The notes under the pieces are model-generated. The model was not told where the DNA came from. It saw only the letters and a list, made by a program, of their open reading frames with translations, and searched no databases. Positions 17,027 to 22,134 of a stretch of DNA of 32,000 nucleotides are shown here, piece after piece (the stretch's first letter is position 1; the number at the start of each line of letters is the position of its first letter). The DNA is taken from positions 630,001-662,000 of the forward strand of contig NC_000854.2 in the NCBI RefSeq assembly GCF_000011125.1. The letters are read 5' to 3'. The DNA is from Aeropyrum pernix K1. GTDB lineage: Archaea; Thermoproteota; Thermoprotei_A; Sulfolobales; Acidilobaceae. A program made the position numbers and the translations under genes.

Positions 17027-18070
17027 ATGAAACATCGCTTCCGGGCGTACATTATTTGGGGTCATCTTATGAGCCAAGAGGCTCTGGGTGTTAGATACGG
17101 CGAGGGCCTTAATAAGAGGCTGGAAGTATCGATTATGATATTCAACCTTATAATCAAGGACTCGATAAGGAAGCAGGCTGAGGAGGGTAAGAGTCTGAAG
17201 GAGATAGCCGACACCCTCTCCTACCTTGACGTGGCTGACAGGGGCTTCGTGATGATGGTTTCCGAGCTGGGCGGCGTGTACCTGTCTTCCGCGCCCCTCA
17301 TGAACACTAATATACTCTACCTCTCAGTAGCCAGCAGGGTGCTAGAGAAGAGTGTGGAGGAGGGTGTAGACCTAGAGCGGGTGTATGAGAGGCTTGATAA
17401 GGCCTCGAAGGTTCTCGCCAGTACTCTGGCTAGGCTAGTGGAGAAGGGGTTTAGGCAGAGCGTCTCCACACTGGCTAAGGAGGCTCAAGGCCGAAGGCTC
17501 TACATATATGGCAGCGAGTTTTTCTCGAGAGTGGCCTACCAGGAGGCGTCCTCGCAGGGTGCTGACGCGGTGCTGATAGCAGCCTCCCCCTGGGACGCCC
17601 TCATATCCAGGCTGGCGGAGGAGCTCGAGGCCCCCCTAGTTTATTACCCGAACGTAAACCTCGAGTTCGCCACATCGGGGGGCAGAGGGTTCTATGTCGC
17701 TGTCGAGGTAGAGTCTATACTCGAGGACAGCCTTCTCGCCCTCGCGGGGACGCGGGCTATAGCCTCTCTTGCTAGGATGTGGGGCGGCACTACGGGGGCG
17801 GTCTCCACACCCCTGGGCCCCAGCCTCTGGACGCCCGAGTTCATGAGGAGCCTACGCGCCGGTGAGATAGTACCCTCCTACATCATGGTGACGGAGTGGG
17901 GAGAGTCCCTGACGTTCAAGGCCTTAGACCCTATACCTAGGAGCGGGGTAGACGCGTTGTACGTGGGGGAGAGAAAGTTCCCGCGGGATACCGACAATAT
18001 AACCCTCTCCTCCGAGTCCTCGAGACTCGTTAGAGAGGCTCTGGAGGAGGTTCAAATCGAGATCGGCTAG
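17027..18070 (+). CDS. Divergent eIF-2B alpha/beta/delta-family-like protein (ribose-1,5-bisphosphate isomerase / aIF-2B fold), function unknown
   Basis: The C-terminal half aligns by eye with the IF-2B family Rossmann-like core: RLYIYGSEFF...VLIAASP...PLVYYPN...FYVAVEVESILEDSLLALAGTRAIASLARMWG...AVSTPLG...SYIMVTEWGE. The start is uncertain (ATG 17027, 17069 or 17135). TATA-like elements lie at about 17001 and 17021. Confidence 0.45.
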   Translation: MKHRFRAYIIWGHLMSQEALGVRYGEGLNKRLEVSIMIFNLIIKDSIRKQAEEGKSLKEIADTLSYLDVADRGFVMMVSELGGVYLSSAPLMNTNILYLSVASRVLEKSVEEGVDLERVYERLDKASKVLASTLARLVEKGFRQSVSTLAKEAQGRRLYIYGSEFFSRVAYQEASSQGADAVLIAASPWDALISRLAEELEAPLVYYPNVNLEFATSGGRGFYVAVEVESILEDSLLALAGTRAIASLARMWGGTTGAVSTPLGPSLWTPEFMRSLRAGEIVPSYIMVTEWGESLTFKALDPIPRSGVDALYVGERKFPRDTDNITLSSESSRLVREALEEVQIEIG

Positions 18071-18194: not shown

Positions 18195-18911
18195 TTGGAG
18201 GGCAGGTATAAGCCTAGTCTAGAGGGTTCCATCGCTAGGGCTGTCGATTCTCTGAGGAACGGCATGCCCGTTATGATCTACGATGGTGACAGGCGTGAGG
18301 GGGAGGTGGACCTAGTCTACTACGCCGGCTCGGTGACCTGGAGGGAGGTCTACACCCTCAGAACCCTGGCTGGGGGGCTGATATGCTTCGTGACCAGCGA
18401 GCGGGTGGGCAGGCTTCTCGGCCTGCCCTTCGCCCAGGAGCTCCTACTCTCCCAGGAAAGCCTCGCCCCCCTGGCCTCCAAGACCCCCGGCTACGGTGAC
18501 CCCCCCGCCTTCTCCATATGGGTCAACCACGTCTCCGTCAAGACGGGGATAAGCGATGAGGACAGGGGGATAACCATTTCTGGGCTCCACAGGGTTGTGG
18601 AGAAGGCGTATAGCGGCTTGGTCGGCGAGGCGCGGAGGATGCTTAGGGAGGAGTTCATGTCGCCCGGCCACGTCCCCATACTCCTGGCCCGGAGCCTAGA
18701 CAGGAGGAGGGGGCACACCGAGCTGACGGTGGCCCTGGGGAGGCTCGCCGGCCTGCCCCCCAGCTTCGTGATAGCCGAGATGCTGGGTGAGAGGTGGAGC
18801 CTGGGCCTTAGGGAGGCTGAGGCTATAGCCAGGGAGAGGAGAATACCCCTGCTGAGAGGCGAGGAGATAGTGGAGGCGTGCAGCCGTGGGGAAGTGTGTA
18901 GGGGTGGCTGA
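18195..18911 (+). CDS. ribB: 3,4-dihydroxy-2-butanone 4-phosphate synthase
   Basis: MPVMIYDGDRREGEVDLVYYAGSVT...TLAGGLICFV...SPGHVPIL...RRGHTELTVAL match the archaeal RibB motifs. TTG start. Confidence 0.88.
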   Translation: MEGRYKPSLEGSIARAVDSLRNGMPVMIYDGDRREGEVDLVYYAGSVTWREVYTLRTLAGGLICFVTSERVGRLLGLPFAQELLLSQESLAPLASKTPGYGDPPAFSIWVNHVSVKTGISDEDRGITISGLHRVVEKAYSGLVGEARRMLREEFMSPGHVPILLARSLDRRRGHTELTVALGRLAGLPPSFVIAEMLGERWSLGLREAEAIARERRIPLLRGEEIVEACSRGEVCRGG

Positions 18912-19353
18912 CACCACCTTCGCCAGGGTCGACATGGGGAGTGTTGCGGAGGAGGTCCTGAGGCGGAGGCTCCCCGGCTACAGGATAGTCAGGCACACGG
19001 TGCCGGGGATAAAGGACCTGCCCGGAGCCGCAAAGAGGATCCTGTCTATGGGCTGCGAGGGGGTCATAACCCTGGGCTGGGTGGGGCGTAGGGAGGCGGA
19101 TAAGCTGAGCTACCTGGCGGCCAGCGTGGGGCTCATTATGGTTGAGGTCCTCACAGGCAAGATAGTTATAGACGTGACGGTCCACGAGGACGAGGCCGAG
19201 GCCCCGGAGGAGCTGGCGGCCATAGCTGTTGACAGGGCCAGGAAGCACGCCGAGAACCTTGCAGCCCTTATAAGGGAGGGGCCCGAGGCCCTAGTCAAGC
19301 ACGCTGGCATGGGGCTGAGGCAGGGCTACCCCGACGCCGGCCCCATAAAATAG
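18886..19353 (+). CDS. ribC: Riboflavin synthase, archaeal (lumazine-synthase-like) type
   Basis: VGVADTTFARVDMGSVAEEVL is the hallmark N-terminus of archaeal riboflavin synthase. The size is about 150 aa. The GTG start (18886 or 18904) overlaps the ribB 3' end. Confidence 0.85.
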   Translation: MGKCVGVADTTFARVDMGSVAEEVLRRRLPGYRIVRHTVPGIKDLPGAAKRILSMGCEGVITLGWVGRREADKLSYLAASVGLIMVEVLTGKIVIDVTVHEDEAEAPEELAAIAVDRARKHAENLAALIREGPEALVKHAGMGLRQGYPDAGPIK

Positions 19354-19438: not shown

Positions 19439-20541
19439 ATGGCGGAGGAGGCTGTCGACGCTAGGGGCGAGGGAGCTAGGTTCATAGAGAAGGTTAAATC
19501 GATATGCGGCAACACGTCCAGGATACTTTACAAGTACGATGAGCCGACGGACCCTAGATACGGCTACCTACCCCATGAGAGGCCGTTGGACGTGTATCTA
19601 AGGTATGGTATGATAGTTGTGGACAAGCCTCCAGGGCCTACGAGCCATGAGGTGGTGGCGTGGATCAAGAGGATGCTGGGAGTCTCCAGGGCGGGCCACG
19701 GGGGGACCCTAGAGCCCCTGCCAGCCCCCAGGGGGCTGCGGGGCGGGGATATCCTAAAGTGACTGGAGTGCTCCCCGTGGCCCTGGAGAGGATGACAAGG
19801 ATTATAGGGACGGTTATGCACAGCAGCAAGGAGTACGTTTGCGTGATGCAGCTCCATAGGCCTGTGGAGGAGGATAGGCTGAGGGAGGTCCTCAAGCTGT
19901 TCGAGGGGGAGATATACCAGAAGCCCCCTCTGAGGAGCAGTGTGAAGAGGGCGCTTAGGACGAGGAGGGTATTCAGGATAGAGCTTCTAGAGTACACGGG
20001 GAAGTATGCCCTGCTGAGGGTGGACTGCGAGGCGGGGACCTACATGAGGAAGCTCTGCTGGGACATAGGCTTGGTGCTGGGGGTCGGGGCCCATATGAGG
20101 GAGCTCAGGAGGATAAGGACAGGGCCCTTCAGCGAGGACAGCGGCCTCATGGTGAGGCTGGACGACGTGGCCTACGCGGTCATAAGGTGGCGGGAGGAGG
20201 GTAAGGACGACCTCCTCAGGAGGGTGGTTATACCCGGGGAGTATAGTGTGTGCCACATACCTAAGGTCCTCGTGAGGGACAGCGCGGTGGAGAGCCTGAC
20301 CCACGGAGCCCAGCTGGCGGCGCCGGGTGTGGCTGCGGTGGAGGAGGGGGTGGAGAAGGGGGGTATGGTGGCTTTGATGACGCTCAAGGGGGAGCTCATA
20401 GGGCTGGGTAAGGCACTCGCGAGCGCCCAGGAGATGCTGGAGGCTGAGAGGGGGATAGTGGTGAGCCCCACCAGGATTATAATGGAGAGGGGGCTCTACC
20501 CCAGGATGTGGAAGCGCCAGCAGGCCCCCCAGGGGGCCTAG
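19439..20541 (+). CDS. cbf5: tRNA/rRNA pseudouridine synthase Cbf5 (H/ACA RNP catalytic subunit); CDS = join(19439..19712,19751..20541), 354 aa after intron removal
   Basis: Exon 1 ends ...[32 protein letters not shown]. Exon 2 continues (D)[19 protein letters not shown]...[10 protein letters not shown]...[13 protein letters not shown], followed by a C-terminal PUA-like region. The two tracked ORFs (19439..19762, 19660..20541) are the two exons read in different frames. Confidence 0.9.
19713..19750 (+). other. 38-nt bulge-helix-bulge (hBHBh') intron in the cbf5 pre-mRNA
   Basis: Hand fold: outer helix 19703-19706:19752-19755; 3-nt bulge 19749-19751; central 4-bp helix 19707-19710:19745-19748; 3-nt bulge 19711-19713; inner helix 19714-19718:19740-19744; apical stem 19722-19727:19733-19738. 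Excision joins cta g|at cct to give Leu-Asp-Pro in frame. The boundary could equally be shifted by +1 nt with an identical product. Confidence 0.85.
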
Positions 20542-20564
20542 GCGGCTGGTGTGGGGTGCTCCTG

Positions 20565-21299
20565 TTGAGGAAGCCGGTTCACCTCGAGGCAGGGCCCGGC
20601 GACGTGGCACCACTCGTGGTGGCAGTCGGCGACCCGGGGAGGGCTGAGAGGCTGGCCACAGGCCTCCTCGAGGACGCTAGGCTGGTGTCCTCCGCCAGGG
20701 GTCTGAAGGTATACACGGGCAGCTTCAACGGCTCGGAGGTAACGATAGCCACCCACGGCATAGGAGGCCCCTCGGCGGCTGTAGTCTTCGAGGAGCTGAG
20801 GATGCTTGGGGCTGAGGTTCTGGTGAGGCTCGGCACCTCGGGCGGCCTATCCAAGGACCTCAGGCTGGGGGACGTGGTGGTCGCCGCGGGGGCGGGCTGC
20901 TACTGGGGCTCCGGGGGTAGCATCCAGTACGCGGGCGAGAGGCCCATGTGCCTCCCGGCCTCCCCCGACCCCATATTGACGGCGGGGATATACAGGGGCC
21001 TCTCCTCCAGGCTCGGGGATAGGGTGGTTCTAGCCCCCGTCATGTCGAGCGACGCCTTCTACGCCGAGACGCCCGAGGCTGCCGGGAGGTGGAGGAGCCT
21101 CGGCATGGCGGCTGTTGAGATGGAGCTCCACACCCTCTTCAGCATATCCTGGATACGGGGCTTCCGCTCGGCCGGGGTGCTCATAGTCTCCGACCTCCTC
21201 CTACCCGAGGGTTTCAAACGCATCACACCAGGGGAGCTTGCAAGGAGGGAGGTTGAGGTTGGCAGGGCTCTCCTCGAGGTCCTCACAGGAGGAGTCTAG
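20565..21299 (+). CDS. Nucleoside phosphorylase, PNP/UDP family 1 (purine nucleoside / MTA / uridine phosphorylase type)
   Basis: VVAVGDPGRAERLA...YTGSFNGSEVTIATHGIGGPSAAVVFEELRMLGAEVLVRLGTSGGL...GDVVVAAGA...AVEMELHTLF. The start is TTG 20565 (or GTG 20556), just after the cbf5 stop. Confidence 0.8.
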   Translation: MRKPVHLEAGPGDVAPLVVAVGDPGRAERLATGLLEDARLVSSARGLKVYTGSFNGSEVTIATHGIGGPSAAVVFEELRMLGAEVLVRLGTSGGLSKDLRLGDVVVAAGAGCYWGSGGSIQYAGERPMCLPASPDPILTAGIYRGLSSRLGDRVVLAPVMSSDAFYAETPEAAGRWRSLGMAAVEMELHTLFSISWIRGFRSAGVLIVSDLLLPEGFKRITPGELARREVEVGRALLEVLTGGV

Positions 21300-22134
21300 A
21301 CGCCCCCAGGCCCCCCTTAGTCTGGGCTGGCTCGGGTTCATAGGAGGCCTCCTCAAGGTGGTGTCGGCCCTCTACCTGGTGTTCATACTGGGCCTGTTCA
21401 GCAGCGTCAAGTCCGTCCTAGCCAGCGCGGAGAGGCTGGCCCTAGAGCTCGAGAGCCAGGGTGGCTTCGAAACCGGAGACGCTGCAGCCCTTGTGGCCTA
21501 CATCACCGGAGGGCTAAGGTCGATAATAGCCGAGAACGCCCTGGGCATAGGAGCGGCTCTCTTCCTCTGGATACTTGGCACCATACTATTCTCCCGGGAG
21601 TGGGAGAGGATAGCTGGCTACTGGCCCTCGATAGCCAGGAGGGCCTTCTCCATCTTCACCTGGCTCTCCAGGCTAGGGGCACTCGCCGCGGGGGTGGCGA
21701 CGGGACTCGTGCTCTCGAGGCTCTCGGGCGACATGTCCTCTATAGCGGCTGGGGTGAGGCTAAGCTATATTGTGGCGACGCTCTACCTCCTCCCCCTCCT
21801 CCCCCCGGTGGTCTACTCGCTCCTCTCCCTCAAGTACCCGCCCCCCAGCTCGAGGGCGGGCGTGCTGCTCCTCCTCGCGGGGGCTGTGCTCTACGTCTAC
21901 AGCATGTACAGCGTGATACAGGCCTTCAGACCCATCTCCGCCGTCGCCGGCCCCCTGGAGGAGGTCCTCAGGGGCGGGCTGAACCAGCATTCCGAGACGG
22001 AGCTGGTGAACGGGTTTATAGAGGCGCTGAGGATACTCATGGACAGGGTTAGGAACACGCTCGTAGCCCTGGCACTGGCCTCAGCCTTCTACACCCTAGG
22101 CTTCGCCGTCATCGGGTTTAGGAGGAGGTCCTAG
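21238..22134 (+). CDS. Polytopic membrane protein, unknown function
   Basis: 298-aa ORF with 6-7 hydrophobic segments. The start is one of TTG 21238/21253/21259, overlapping the upstream gene. Its 3' end overlaps the convergent glycerate kinase gene by 39 nt. Confidence 0.5.
   Translation: MQGGRLRLAGLSSRSSQEESRRPQAPLSLGWLGFIGGLLKVVSALYLVFILGLFSSVKSVLASAERLALELESQGGFETGDAAALVAYITGGLRSIIAENALGIGAALFLWILGTILFSREWERIAGYWPSIARRAFSIFTWLSRLGALAAGVATGLVLSRLSGDMSSIAAGVRLSYIVATLYLLPLLPPVVYSLLSLKYPPPSSRAGVLLLLAGAVLYVYSMYSVIQAFRPISAVAGPLEEVLRGGLNQHSETELVNGFIEALRILMDRVRNTLVALALASAFYTLGFAVIGFRRRS

What the first reader, a model, noticed from the sequence alone, without database searches (positions are those of the whole stretch)
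19713..19750. cbf5 is interrupted by a 38-nt bulge-helix-bulge intron, a protein-coding archaeal intron rather than a frameshift or pseudogene
The ORF track splits the Cbf5/TruB-family pseudouridine synthase into two pieces. The first, 19439..19762, ends ...[23 protein letters not shown]. The informative part of the second, 19660..20541, starts at ...[14 protein letters not shown]. In this family GHGGTL is followed directly by DP, with the catalytic Asp, then K/x-x-x-G-x-L-P. Here the two halves lie in different frames, 38 nt apart.

Folding the junction by hand gives a canonical hBHBh' motif, the substrate of the archaeal splicing endonuclease:
- outer helix G19703-A19706 : U19752-U19755;
- 3-nt bulge A19749-U19750-A19751;
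- central 4-bp helix C19707-U19710 : G19745-G19748;
- 3-nt bulge A19711-G19712-A19713;
- inner helix G19714-C19718 : G19740-C19744;
- a further GC-rich apical stem.

Cleavage after the second nucleotide of each bulge removes 19713..19750. It joins cta g|at cct to give Leu-Asp-Pro, restoring both the frame and the catalytic Asp. The mature CDS is 1065 nt (354 aa).

Introns in archaeal protein-coding genes are very rare. From memory, a cbf5 intron was reported in the early 2000s for Aeropyrum pernix and Sulfolobus species. This is therefore probably a rediscovery, but automated annotation routinely breaks this gene.
Basis: partly seen in the sequence, partly recalled or inferred. Interest (0 to 1): 0.75.

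Follow-up and report, generated by a model that had tools for sequence, protein, structure and literature searches.

The report
Known cbf5 mRNA intron, Aeropyrum pernix
The split pseudouridine-synthase gene really is interrupted by a 38-base intron removed by the archaeal tRNA-splicing machinery, but this is the original textbook case, described in Aeropyrum pernix K1 in 2002, so it is a correct rediscovery and not a new finding.

Summary
The observation and its interpretation both hold, and the feature is already known.

- **Splice product.** Removing 19713..19750 (38 nt) joins ORF 19439..19762 to the informative part of ORF 19660..20541. The result is a 1065-nt CDS of 354 aa.
- **Identity.** That protein is residue-for-residue identical to the deposited Cbf5 of Aeropyrum pernix K1 (BAA79974.2 / Q9YDC3.2 / BAE96920.1). 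The window is therefore A. pernix K1.
- **Prior description.** Yokobori et al. 2009 list a 38-bp cbf5 intron for this strain, with a cDNA accession. Splicing was first reported by Watanabe et al. 2002.
- **Protein family.** The spliced protein aligns without gaps to Pyrococcus furiosus Cbf5 across [20 protein letters not shown]. It scores 460 bits on the NCBIfam Cbf5 equivalog (cut-off 242).
- **Relatives.** 36 of 80 related loci carry an intron of 27-57 nt at the same site. All five inner-helix pairs covary, and the central helix is 100% paired.
- **Exon constraint.** Thr/Leu codons are ACC CTA in 35 of 37 intron-bearing genes. In 44 intron-less genes ACC occurs 7 times and CTA 11 times.

Two caveats:
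- A BHB-shaped motif alone is not rare here: 46 in the window against about 33 by chance.
- The "canonical" outer-helix register is not supported across relatives, and the literature calls the motif relaxed.

Interest is low.

The parts
19439..19712 (+). cbf5 exon 1 (274 nt). It ends with G, the first base of the catalytic Asp codon.
   Evidence: The start codon and sequence match deposited A. pernix K1 Cbf5 BAA79974.2 exactly.
19713..19750 (+). 38-nt BHB-type intron (AGCCCCTGCCAGCCCCCAGGGGGCTGCGGGGCGGGGAT).
   Evidence: A 38-bp intron is listed for A. pernix JCM 9820 in PMC2738675 Additional file 1. Related loci carry 27-57 nt introns at the same site.
19751..20541 (+). cbf5 exon 2 (791 nt including the stop codon). 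It begins with AT, completing GAT (Asp), followed by CCT AAA GTG ACT GGA (P K V T G).
   Evidence: Gap-free alignment to P. furiosus Cbf5 2hvy_A.
19703..19706 (+). Outer helix h, 5' strand (GGGA). It pairs with 19752-19755 in the canonical register. The run G19700-G19705 also allows a slipped register, 19700-19703 with 19752-19755.
   Evidence: Family support is 70% of cells paired for the canonical register and 92% for the slipped one.
19707..19710 (+). Central 4-bp helix H, 5' strand (CCCU, exonic: the end of the Thr codon and the start of the Leu codon).
   Evidence: It is 100% paired in 33 distinct relatives. Synonymous sites are frozen: ACC CTA in 35 of 37 intron-bearing genes, while in 44 intron-less genes ACC occurs 7 times and CTA 11 times.
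19711..19713 (+). 5' three-nucleotide bulge AGA. The inferred cleavage is between 19712 and 19713.
   Evidence: The rule of cleavage between the second and third bulge residues is stated in PMC2738675.
19714..19718 (+). Inner helix h', 5' strand (GCCCC). It pairs with 19740-19744.
   Evidence: All 5 pairs show compensatory changes across relatives, and 98% of cells are paired.
19720..19739 (+). Apical G+C-rich stem-loop of the intron (19720-19721 with 19738-19739; 19723-19728 with 19732-19737; loop 19729-19731).
   Evidence: This part varies in length and sequence among relatives.
19740..19744 (+). Inner helix h', 3' strand (GGGGC).
19745..19748 (+). Central helix H, 3' strand (GGGG, intronic).
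19749..19751 (+). 3' three-nucleotide bulge AUA. The inferred cleavage is between 19750 and 19751.
19752..19755 (+). Outer helix h, 3' strand (UCCU, exonic: the end of the Asp codon plus the Pro codon).
19760..19762 (+). TGA that terminates translation of the unspliced mRNA in the exon-1 frame. The product would be a 107-aa fragment with Glu in place of the catalytic Asp.

Best explanation
This is the cbf5 gene of Aeropyrum pernix K1. It encodes the catalytic subunit of the H/ACA RNA-guided pseudouridine synthase and is interrupted by the 38-nt intron already described for this strain.

In the pre-mRNA, exon bases 19703-19710 and 19752-19755 pair with each other and with intron bases. This builds a bulge-helix-bulge(-like) motif: two 3-nt bulges separated by a 4-bp helix.

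The crenarchaeal heterotetrameric (alpha2beta2) splicing endonuclease EndA, the same enzyme that removes tRNA and rRNA introns, cuts after the second nucleotide of each bulge. That places the cuts at 19712|19713 and 19750|19751. An RNA ligase then joins the exons.

Joining G + AT recreates the catalytic Asp codon and the reading frame, giving a 354-aa Cbf5. Unspliced mRNA can yield only a 107-aa fragment that lacks the catalytic Asp.

Shown here:
- the gene identity;
- the exact splice product;
- the structure and its conservation and covariation.

Taken from the literature: cDNA evidence and EndA cleavage.

Inferred: the ligase step, and any regulatory role for the intron.
For: 1. The conceptual splice gives a 354-aa protein identical over its full length to BAA79974.2 / Q9YDC3.2 / BAE96920.1, 'small nucleolar RNP protein Cbf5 [Aeropyrum pernix K1]'. 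It sits on a 1,669,696-bp contig. The neighbouring RibB and riboflavin synthase proteins are also exact A. pernix K1 proteins.
2. PMC2738675 Additional file 1 lists A. pernix JCM 9820 with a 38-bp intron and cDNA accession AB245523. Its Background section states that splicing was shown in A. pernix in 2002 and that cleavage depends on EndA recognising a BHB-like structure.
3. Pfam finds DKCLD, TruB_N, TruB_C_2 and PUA domains. The NCBIfam Cbf5 equivalogs score 460.5 and 421.6 bits against cut-offs of 242 and 238.
4. phmmer against PDB gives E = 4e-113 to P. furiosus Cbf5 2hvy_A. The alignment is uninterrupted through [20 protein letters not shown].
5. The MFE structure equals the proposed hBHBh'.
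6. Comparative evidence:
   - 37 of 81 sequences (the window plus the 80 loci) carry an intron at the identical codon position, 27-57 nt long.
   - Across 33 distinct sequences, the inner helix has compensatory changes at 5 of 5 pairs.
   - The central helix is 100% paired.
   - 0 of 500 shuffles reach the observed covariation score, and slid controls fall from 90-97% paired to 40-70%.
7. Exonic synonymous sites that form the central helix are frozen only where the intron is present. Thr ACC is 35/37 against 7/44, and Leu CTA is 35/37 against 11/44.
Against: - The splicing evidence is second-hand, from the literature.
- A BHB-shaped motif alone occurs at about chance frequency in this G+C-rich window: 46 against 33 +/- 6.
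- The fold energy is not exceptional (z = -1.5).
- The register of the outer helix is ambiguous.
- PMC3241643 reports that His-tagged A. pernix EndA barely cleaved the 3' junction of a cbf5 BHL substrate in one study. In vitro efficiency at the 3' site is therefore not settled.
- The A. pernix genome itself did not appear among the 80 loci returned, so the identification rests on exact protein identity and not on DNA identity.
Confidence: 0.97

Rival explanations
1. The splicing explanation is the same, but the motif EndA sees is not the canonical hBHBh'. Instead it is a relaxed one (BHL / hBH-like). The 5' site lies in a true 3-nt bulge. The 3' site lies in a 3x3 internal loop formed when G19700-G19703 pair with U19752-U19755, leaving G19704-A19706 unpaired.
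For: - With a short context, RNAfold chooses this register for the window and for most relatives.
- In the window the slipped register scores -34.1 kcal/mol against -33.3 for the canonical one, when the extra outer CAC/GUG helix is not counted.
- Across 33 distinct relatives the slipped outer helix is 92.4% paired against 70.5% for the canonical register. Relatives with Asp = GAC have an A.C mismatch next to the bulge in the canonical register.
Against: - In this particular sequence all four canonical outer pairs can form.
- With 71 nt of context the canonical register is the MFE, at -37.6 kcal/mol.
- The outer helix shows no compensatory double changes in either register, so comparison cannot decide between them.
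Confidence: 0.4
2. A genuinely split gene. Two separate polypeptides, an N-terminal 107 aa and a C-terminal fragment, are translated and assemble into an active enzyme without RNA splicing.
For: - The ORF track shows two overlapping ORFs.
- RefSeq carries the 107-aa piece as a protein.
Against: - The break falls inside the catalytic Asp codon, so neither piece would carry the Asp.
- The informative part of the second ORF has no start codon at the junction. The first Met after it is in ...LERMTRII.
- A cDNA-derived record and the curated genome record give the joined 354-aa protein.
- The intron structure covaries, which a mere gene split would not require.
Confidence: 0.01
3. A pseudogene, a frameshift, or an assembly or sequencing artefact.
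For: The reading frame is broken in the genomic sequence.
Against: - Both exons are intact and score as a full-length Cbf5 equivalog.
- An insertion at the same codon, 27-57 nt long and with conserved pairing, is present in 36 independently assembled relatives.
- It is also reported in several A. pernix isolates and in A. camini.
Confidence: 0.01

Closest known systems
cbf5 pre-mRNA intron of Aeropyrum pernix K1 (Watanabe et al. 2002, FEBS Lett 510:27; Yoshinari et al. 2006; Yokobori et al. 2009, PMC2738675)
   Same: It is the same object: same organism, same gene, same 38-nt length, same spliced protein.
   Different: Nothing differs.
cbf5 introns of other Desulfurococcales and Sulfolobales (16-44 bp in PMC2738675; 27-57 nt in the loci)
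   Same: Same insertion point inside the catalytic Asp codon, same central helix and bulges, and the same presumed EndA dependence.
   Different: The length and the apical sequence vary. Many are multiples of 3 and carry an in-frame stop, whereas the A. pernix intron shifts the frame. Pyrodictiaceae and Ignicoccus lack the intron.
Archaeal tRNA and rRNA BHB introns
   Same: Same recognition motif and the same endonuclease. Cleavage is between the second and third bulge nucleotides.
   Different: The host RNA is an mRNA, and the helices are built partly from coding sequence, which constrains synonymous codons. There is no tRNA body to assist recognition.
BHB intron in the 5' UTR of Haloferax volcanii HVO_1309 mRNA (Schwarz et al. 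2020, PMC7714728)
   Same: An EndA-processed BHB in an mRNA.
   Different: That intron lies in the untranslated leader of a euryarchaeal mRNA. This one lies inside the coding sequence of a crenarchaeal mRNA.
Unconventional cytoplasmic splicing of HAC1/XBP1 mRNA in eukaryotes (own knowledge, not tested here)
   Same: It works alike: a non-spliceosomal mRNA intron is cut by a structure-specific endonuclease at two stem-loop sites, and the exons are joined by a tRNA-type ligase, changing the reading frame.
   Different: The endonuclease is different (Ire1, not EndA/Sen), the motif is different, and the eukaryotic case is demonstrably regulatory. No regulation has been shown for cbf5.

Membership tests
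Archaeal EndA-dependent (BHB-type) cbf5 pre-mRNA intron | The insertion lies inside the codon of the catalytic Asp of the GHGGTLD motif. | tested here: met
   G19712 | intron | A19751 T19752 gives GAT. 36 related loci have the same position. [quoted passage not shown]
Archaeal EndA-dependent (BHB-type) cbf5 pre-mRNA intron | Two 3-nt bulges are separated by a 4-bp helix, and cleavage after the second bulge nucleotide gives exactly the exon borders. | tested here: met
   All pairs were verified, and the MFE structure agrees. The central helix is 100% paired and the inner helix covaries at 5 of 5 pairs.
Archaeal EndA-dependent (BHB-type) cbf5 pre-mRNA intron | A canonical flanking outer helix (strict hBHBh' as opposed to a relaxed motif). 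| tested here: inconclusive
   It can form in this sequence. An alternative slipped register is about equally stable and better conserved, at 92% against 70% of cells paired. The literature uses 'unconventional' and 'BHL'.
Archaeal EndA-dependent (BHB-type) cbf5 pre-mRNA intron | The spliced mRNA exists and encodes the continuous protein. | tested here: met
   The conceptual product equals the deposited protein records, including BAE96920.1. A cDNA accession, AB245523, is listed for this strain. That BAE96920.1 derives from that cDNA is my inference. No RNA data were analysed here.
Archaeal EndA-dependent (BHB-type) cbf5 pre-mRNA intron | Cleavage by the heterotetrameric crenarchaeal splicing endonuclease, followed by exon ligation. 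| not testable with these tools
   Literature only. The EndA genes were not looked for in this window.
Archaeal EndA-dependent (BHB-type) cbf5 pre-mRNA intron | The host belongs to Desulfurococcales or Sulfolobales. | tested here: met
   Exact protein matches to Aeropyrum pernix K1 for Cbf5, RibB and riboflavin synthase.
Cbf5 (H/ACA RNP pseudouridine synthase, TruB family) | DKCLD + TruB_N + TruB_C_2 + PUA architecture, and a score above the curated equivalog cut-off. | tested here: met
   Pfam. NF003280 scores 460.5 bits against a cut-off of 242, and TIGR00425 scores 421.6 against 238.15.
Cbf5 (H/ACA RNP pseudouridine synthase, TruB family) | The catalytic Asp lies in GHGGTLDP and aligns with solved Cbf5 structures. 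| tested here: met
   Gap-free alignment to 2hvy_A and 3lwo_A across the junction, E = 4e-113.

The most novel reading that the evidence does not exclude
The intron may be more than a tolerated insertion. It may act as a gate on Cbf5 synthesis. Every unspliced cbf5 mRNA examined terminates early: all 23 distinct in-frame introns carry an in-frame stop, and all 10 frame-shifting ones run into a stop. This suggests selection against making a catalytically dead Cbf5 that could still bind guide RNAs and partner proteins. Cbf5 output, and hence H/ACA pseudouridylation capacity, would then be coupled to EndA and ligase activity. The original authors proposed a negative-regulator role without evidence. 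As of 2020 the function was 'not yet known'.
Probability: 0.2. Interest if true: 0.45.

Novelty: already known. Interest (0 to 1): 0.1.

Why it matters
As a discovery it does not matter. This is the founding example of pre-mRNA splicing in Archaea, published in 2002 for this very strain.

It has practical value as an annotation check. RefSeq still carries a 107-aa fragment of this gene under a wrong name (TruA). The A. camini record likewise holds only a fragment. Pipelines therefore still mis-call cbf5 in Desulfurococcales and Sulfolobales and in their metagenome-assembled relatives. In the relatives sampled here, 36 of 80 loci have the intron.

The comparative results show how an RNA-processing signal built from coding sequence constrains synonymous sites. 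These results are the frozen ACC CTA codons, the covarying inner helix, and the obligatory stop codon in in-frame introns. They give a testable handle on the open question of whether the intron has a function.

Tried and rejected
- **Chance occurrence of the motif.** A strict 13-pair hBHBh' scan of both strands found 46 motifs against 33 +/- 6 in Markov-1 simulations. The structure alone is therefore not evidence, and I dropped 'rare motif' as an argument. I rely instead on position, splice product and covariation.
- **Fold energy.** z = -1.5, which is not informative in a window with 60% G+C.
- **Other structured RNAs.** tRNA and Rfam scans of the window found nothing: 0 tRNAs and 0 Rfam families at gathering score.
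- **Locating the source genome by DNA.** The genome-contig scan returned relatives at no more than 78% identity and not A. pernix itself. Identification came from the exact-protein look-up instead. Why A. pernix was absent from the 80 loci kept is not known.
- **How earlier authors drew the A. pernix motif.** I looked in PMC2724299 for a cbf5 substrate description. The term is absent there. The 2002 and 2006 primary papers are not in the searchable library.
- **Rejected rivals.** Split gene, pseudogene and assembly error are rejected for the reasons given under the rival explanations.

Full report
**1. Observation**

The sequence and ORF list confirm the split.
- ORF 19439..19762 (107 aa) ends ...[24 protein letters not shown].
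- ORF 19660..20541 (293 aa), in another frame, reads ...[16 protein letters not shown]....

- Every one of the 13 proposed base pairs is a standard pair: 19703-06 with 19752-55, 19707-10 with 19745-48, and 19714-18 with 19740-44.
- The two bulges are AGA (19711-13) and ATA (19749-51).
- Deleting 19713..19750 (38 nt) yields a 1065-nt ORF of 354 aa that reads ...[20 protein letters not shown]....

RNAfold of 19695-19765 returns exactly this hBHBh' as its minimum-energy structure: -37.6 kcal/mol, z = -1.5.

Because 19713 and 19751 are both A, an intron of 19714..19751 would give the same mRNA. Only the BHB cleavage rule fixes the borders at 19713..19750.

**2. Is it more than chance?**

The motif alone is not.
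- A strict scan (all 13 pairs, 3-nt bulges, intron 15-150 nt) finds 28 such motifs on the + strand and 18 on the - strand of this 60% G+C window.
- First-order Markov simulations give 33 +/- 6 for both strands together.

The evidence lies in the conjunction. The motif falls on the single (position, length) combination that restores the frame and the catalytic Asp codon. Chance for that is about 6e-6 per combination on the + strand. It is also conserved in relatives.

**3. What the gene is**

- The spliced protein has DKCLD, TruB_N, TruB_C_2 and PUA domains.
- It scores 460.5 and 421.6 bits on the two NCBIfam Cbf5 equivalog models, against cut-offs of 242 and 238.
- It matches Pyrococcus furiosus Cbf5 structures at E = 4e-113.
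- That alignment runs without a gap through the junction: [20 protein letters not shown] against [20 protein letters not shown].

**4. Where it comes from, and whether it is known**

An exact-sequence look-up shows that the conceptually spliced 354-aa protein is already deposited.
- Accessions are BAA79974.2, Q9YDC3.2 and BAE96920.1, named 'small nucleolar RNP protein Cbf5 [Aeropyrum pernix K1]'. The contig is 1,669,696 bp.
- The two upstream ORFs are exact A. pernix K1 RibB (BAA79970.2) and riboflavin synthase (BAA79972.1).

The window is therefore A. pernix K1.

The literature covers this case directly.
- Yokobori et al. 2009 (PMC2738675) state that pre-mRNA splicing of cbf5 was first reported in 2002 for A. 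pernix, S. solfataricus and S. tokodaii. They also state that cleavage depends on recognition of a BHB-like structure by the splicing endonuclease EndA.
- Their Additional file 1 lists A. pernix JCM 9820 with a 38-bp intron and a cDNA accession, AB245523.
- They report the intron in all A. pernix isolates examined, in two types that differ by two substitutions.
- A 2020 paper still calls cbf5 the only BHB intron reported in an archaeal mRNA besides the one described in that paper. It adds that its function is not yet known.

The finding is thus a correct rediscovery of the type example.

**5. Comparative evidence gathered here**

A scan of one genome per species returned 80 relatives, mostly metagenome-assembled Desulfurococcales, Acidilobaceae and Pyrodictiaceae.

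Distribution of the intron:
- 36 relatives have an insertion at exactly the same codon position, 27-57 nt long.
- 44 have none, including the Pyrodictiaceae and Ignicoccus pacificus. This agrees with the published pattern of loss.

I built a fixed-register alignment of the boundary segments, with 33 distinct rows, and counted pairs on it.
- The inner helix has compensatory double changes at all five pairs, and 98% of cells are paired.
- The central helix is 100% paired.
- No shuffle out of 500 reaches the observed covariation score.
- Sliding the partner by 1-3 columns drops pairing from 90% to 41-63%.

The exon bases that form the central helix are synonymous-site frozen only when the intron is present.

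| Codon | Intron-bearing genes | Intron-less genes |
|---|---|---|
| Thr = ACC | 35/37 | 7/44 |
| Leu = CTA | 35/37 | 11/44 |

**6. Qualification on 'canonical'**

The run G19700-G19705 lets the outer helix slip.
- In the slipped register, 19700-03 pair with 19752-55 and GGA is unpaired, so the 3' site lies in a 3x3 internal loop. This scores -34.1 kcal/mol.
- The canonical bulge register scores -33.3 kcal/mol.
- The canonical register becomes the MFE only with a further CAC/GUG helix.

Across relatives, the slipped register is paired in 92% of cells and the canonical one in 70%. The reason is that Asp = GAC creates an A.C mismatch in the canonical register. Neither register shows double changes.

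[quoted passage not shown] It also fits the argument that the broad-specificity heterotetrameric crenarchaeal EndA is what made such an mRNA intron possible.

**7. Mechanism**

Shown here:
- the gene identity;
- the borders that restore the deposited protein;
- the conserved and covarying structure;
- that unspliced mRNA ends at TGA 19760-62, after Glu replaces the catalytic Asp.

From the literature: the spliced cDNA, and cleavage by EndA.

Inferred: exon ligation by the archaeal RNA ligase, and any regulatory use of the intron.

**8. Rivals**

- A split gene making two polypeptides, a pseudogene, and an assembly error are each contradicted. The evidence is the split Asp codon, the intact full-length exons, the deposited cDNA-derived protein, and the conserved, covarying insertion in 36 independent assemblies.
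- The only live alternative concerns the fine structure: relaxed against canonical motif.

**9. Verdict**

Novelty is 'already known', and interest is low at 0.1.

The residual interest lies in two side observations.
- Every in-frame cbf5 intron carries an in-frame stop.
- Current RefSeq annotation still breaks and misnames the gene.

Noticed in passing
window 19713-19762, and loci L001-L080 at the cbf5 junction (coordinates): Of 33 distinct cbf5 introns, 23 have a length divisible by 3 (binomial P = 2e-5 against 1/3, not corrected for phylogeny). All 23 contain an in-frame stop codon (TAG, TGA or TAA) at varying positions. The mean chance per intron is 0.21 when the apical part is shuffled. 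The 10 frame-shifting introns, including this window's, also run into a stop, in or shortly after the intron. No unspliced cbf5 mRNA can be read through. I did not find this stated in PMC2738675.
   Followed up: partly
window 19439-19762: RefSeq holds the 107-aa exon-1 read-through fragment as WP_241759711.1, named 'tRNA pseudouridine synthase A [Aeropyrum pernix]'. That is both a truncated product and the wrong family name (TruA instead of Cbf5/TruB). Two other 107-aa fragments, annotated as 'H/ACA RNA-protein complex component Cbf5p', fall in the same protein cluster as the exon-1 fragment: one from A. camini SY1 and one from another A. pernix assembly.
   Followed up: partly
window 19703-19712 and 19751-19755; the same codons in L001-L080: Synonymous sites of the Thr and Leu codons before the splice site are frozen (ACC CTA) in intron-bearing genes and free in intron-less relatives. 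This is a clear case of an RNA-structure constraint on coding sequence.
   Followed up: yes
loci list: The species-representative genome scan returned relatives at no more than 78% identity (Aeropyrum sp. MAGs). Neither A. pernix nor A. camini appeared, although both exist as genomes. The reason is unknown; possibly the source genome is withheld or masked.
   Followed up: no
window 20508-20541: The 3' end of cbf5 overlaps the longest ORF of the downstream gene by 34 nt. That gene is 20508..21299, PNP_UDP_1 phosphorylase superfamily, E = 1e-35. Its true start may lie further downstream. Upstream, ribB (18195..18911) and riboflavin synthase (18886..19353) lie on the same strand, so cbf5 sits in a tight same-strand gene row.
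   Followed up: no
window 17027-18070 (+) and 21238-22134 (+): Two sizeable ORFs, of 347 and 298 aa, have no Pfam match. The 298-aa one looks like a multi-pass membrane protein from its sequence.
   Followed up: no
window, whole: There are no tRNA genes and no Rfam family at gathering score anywhere in the 32 kb.
   Followed up: yes
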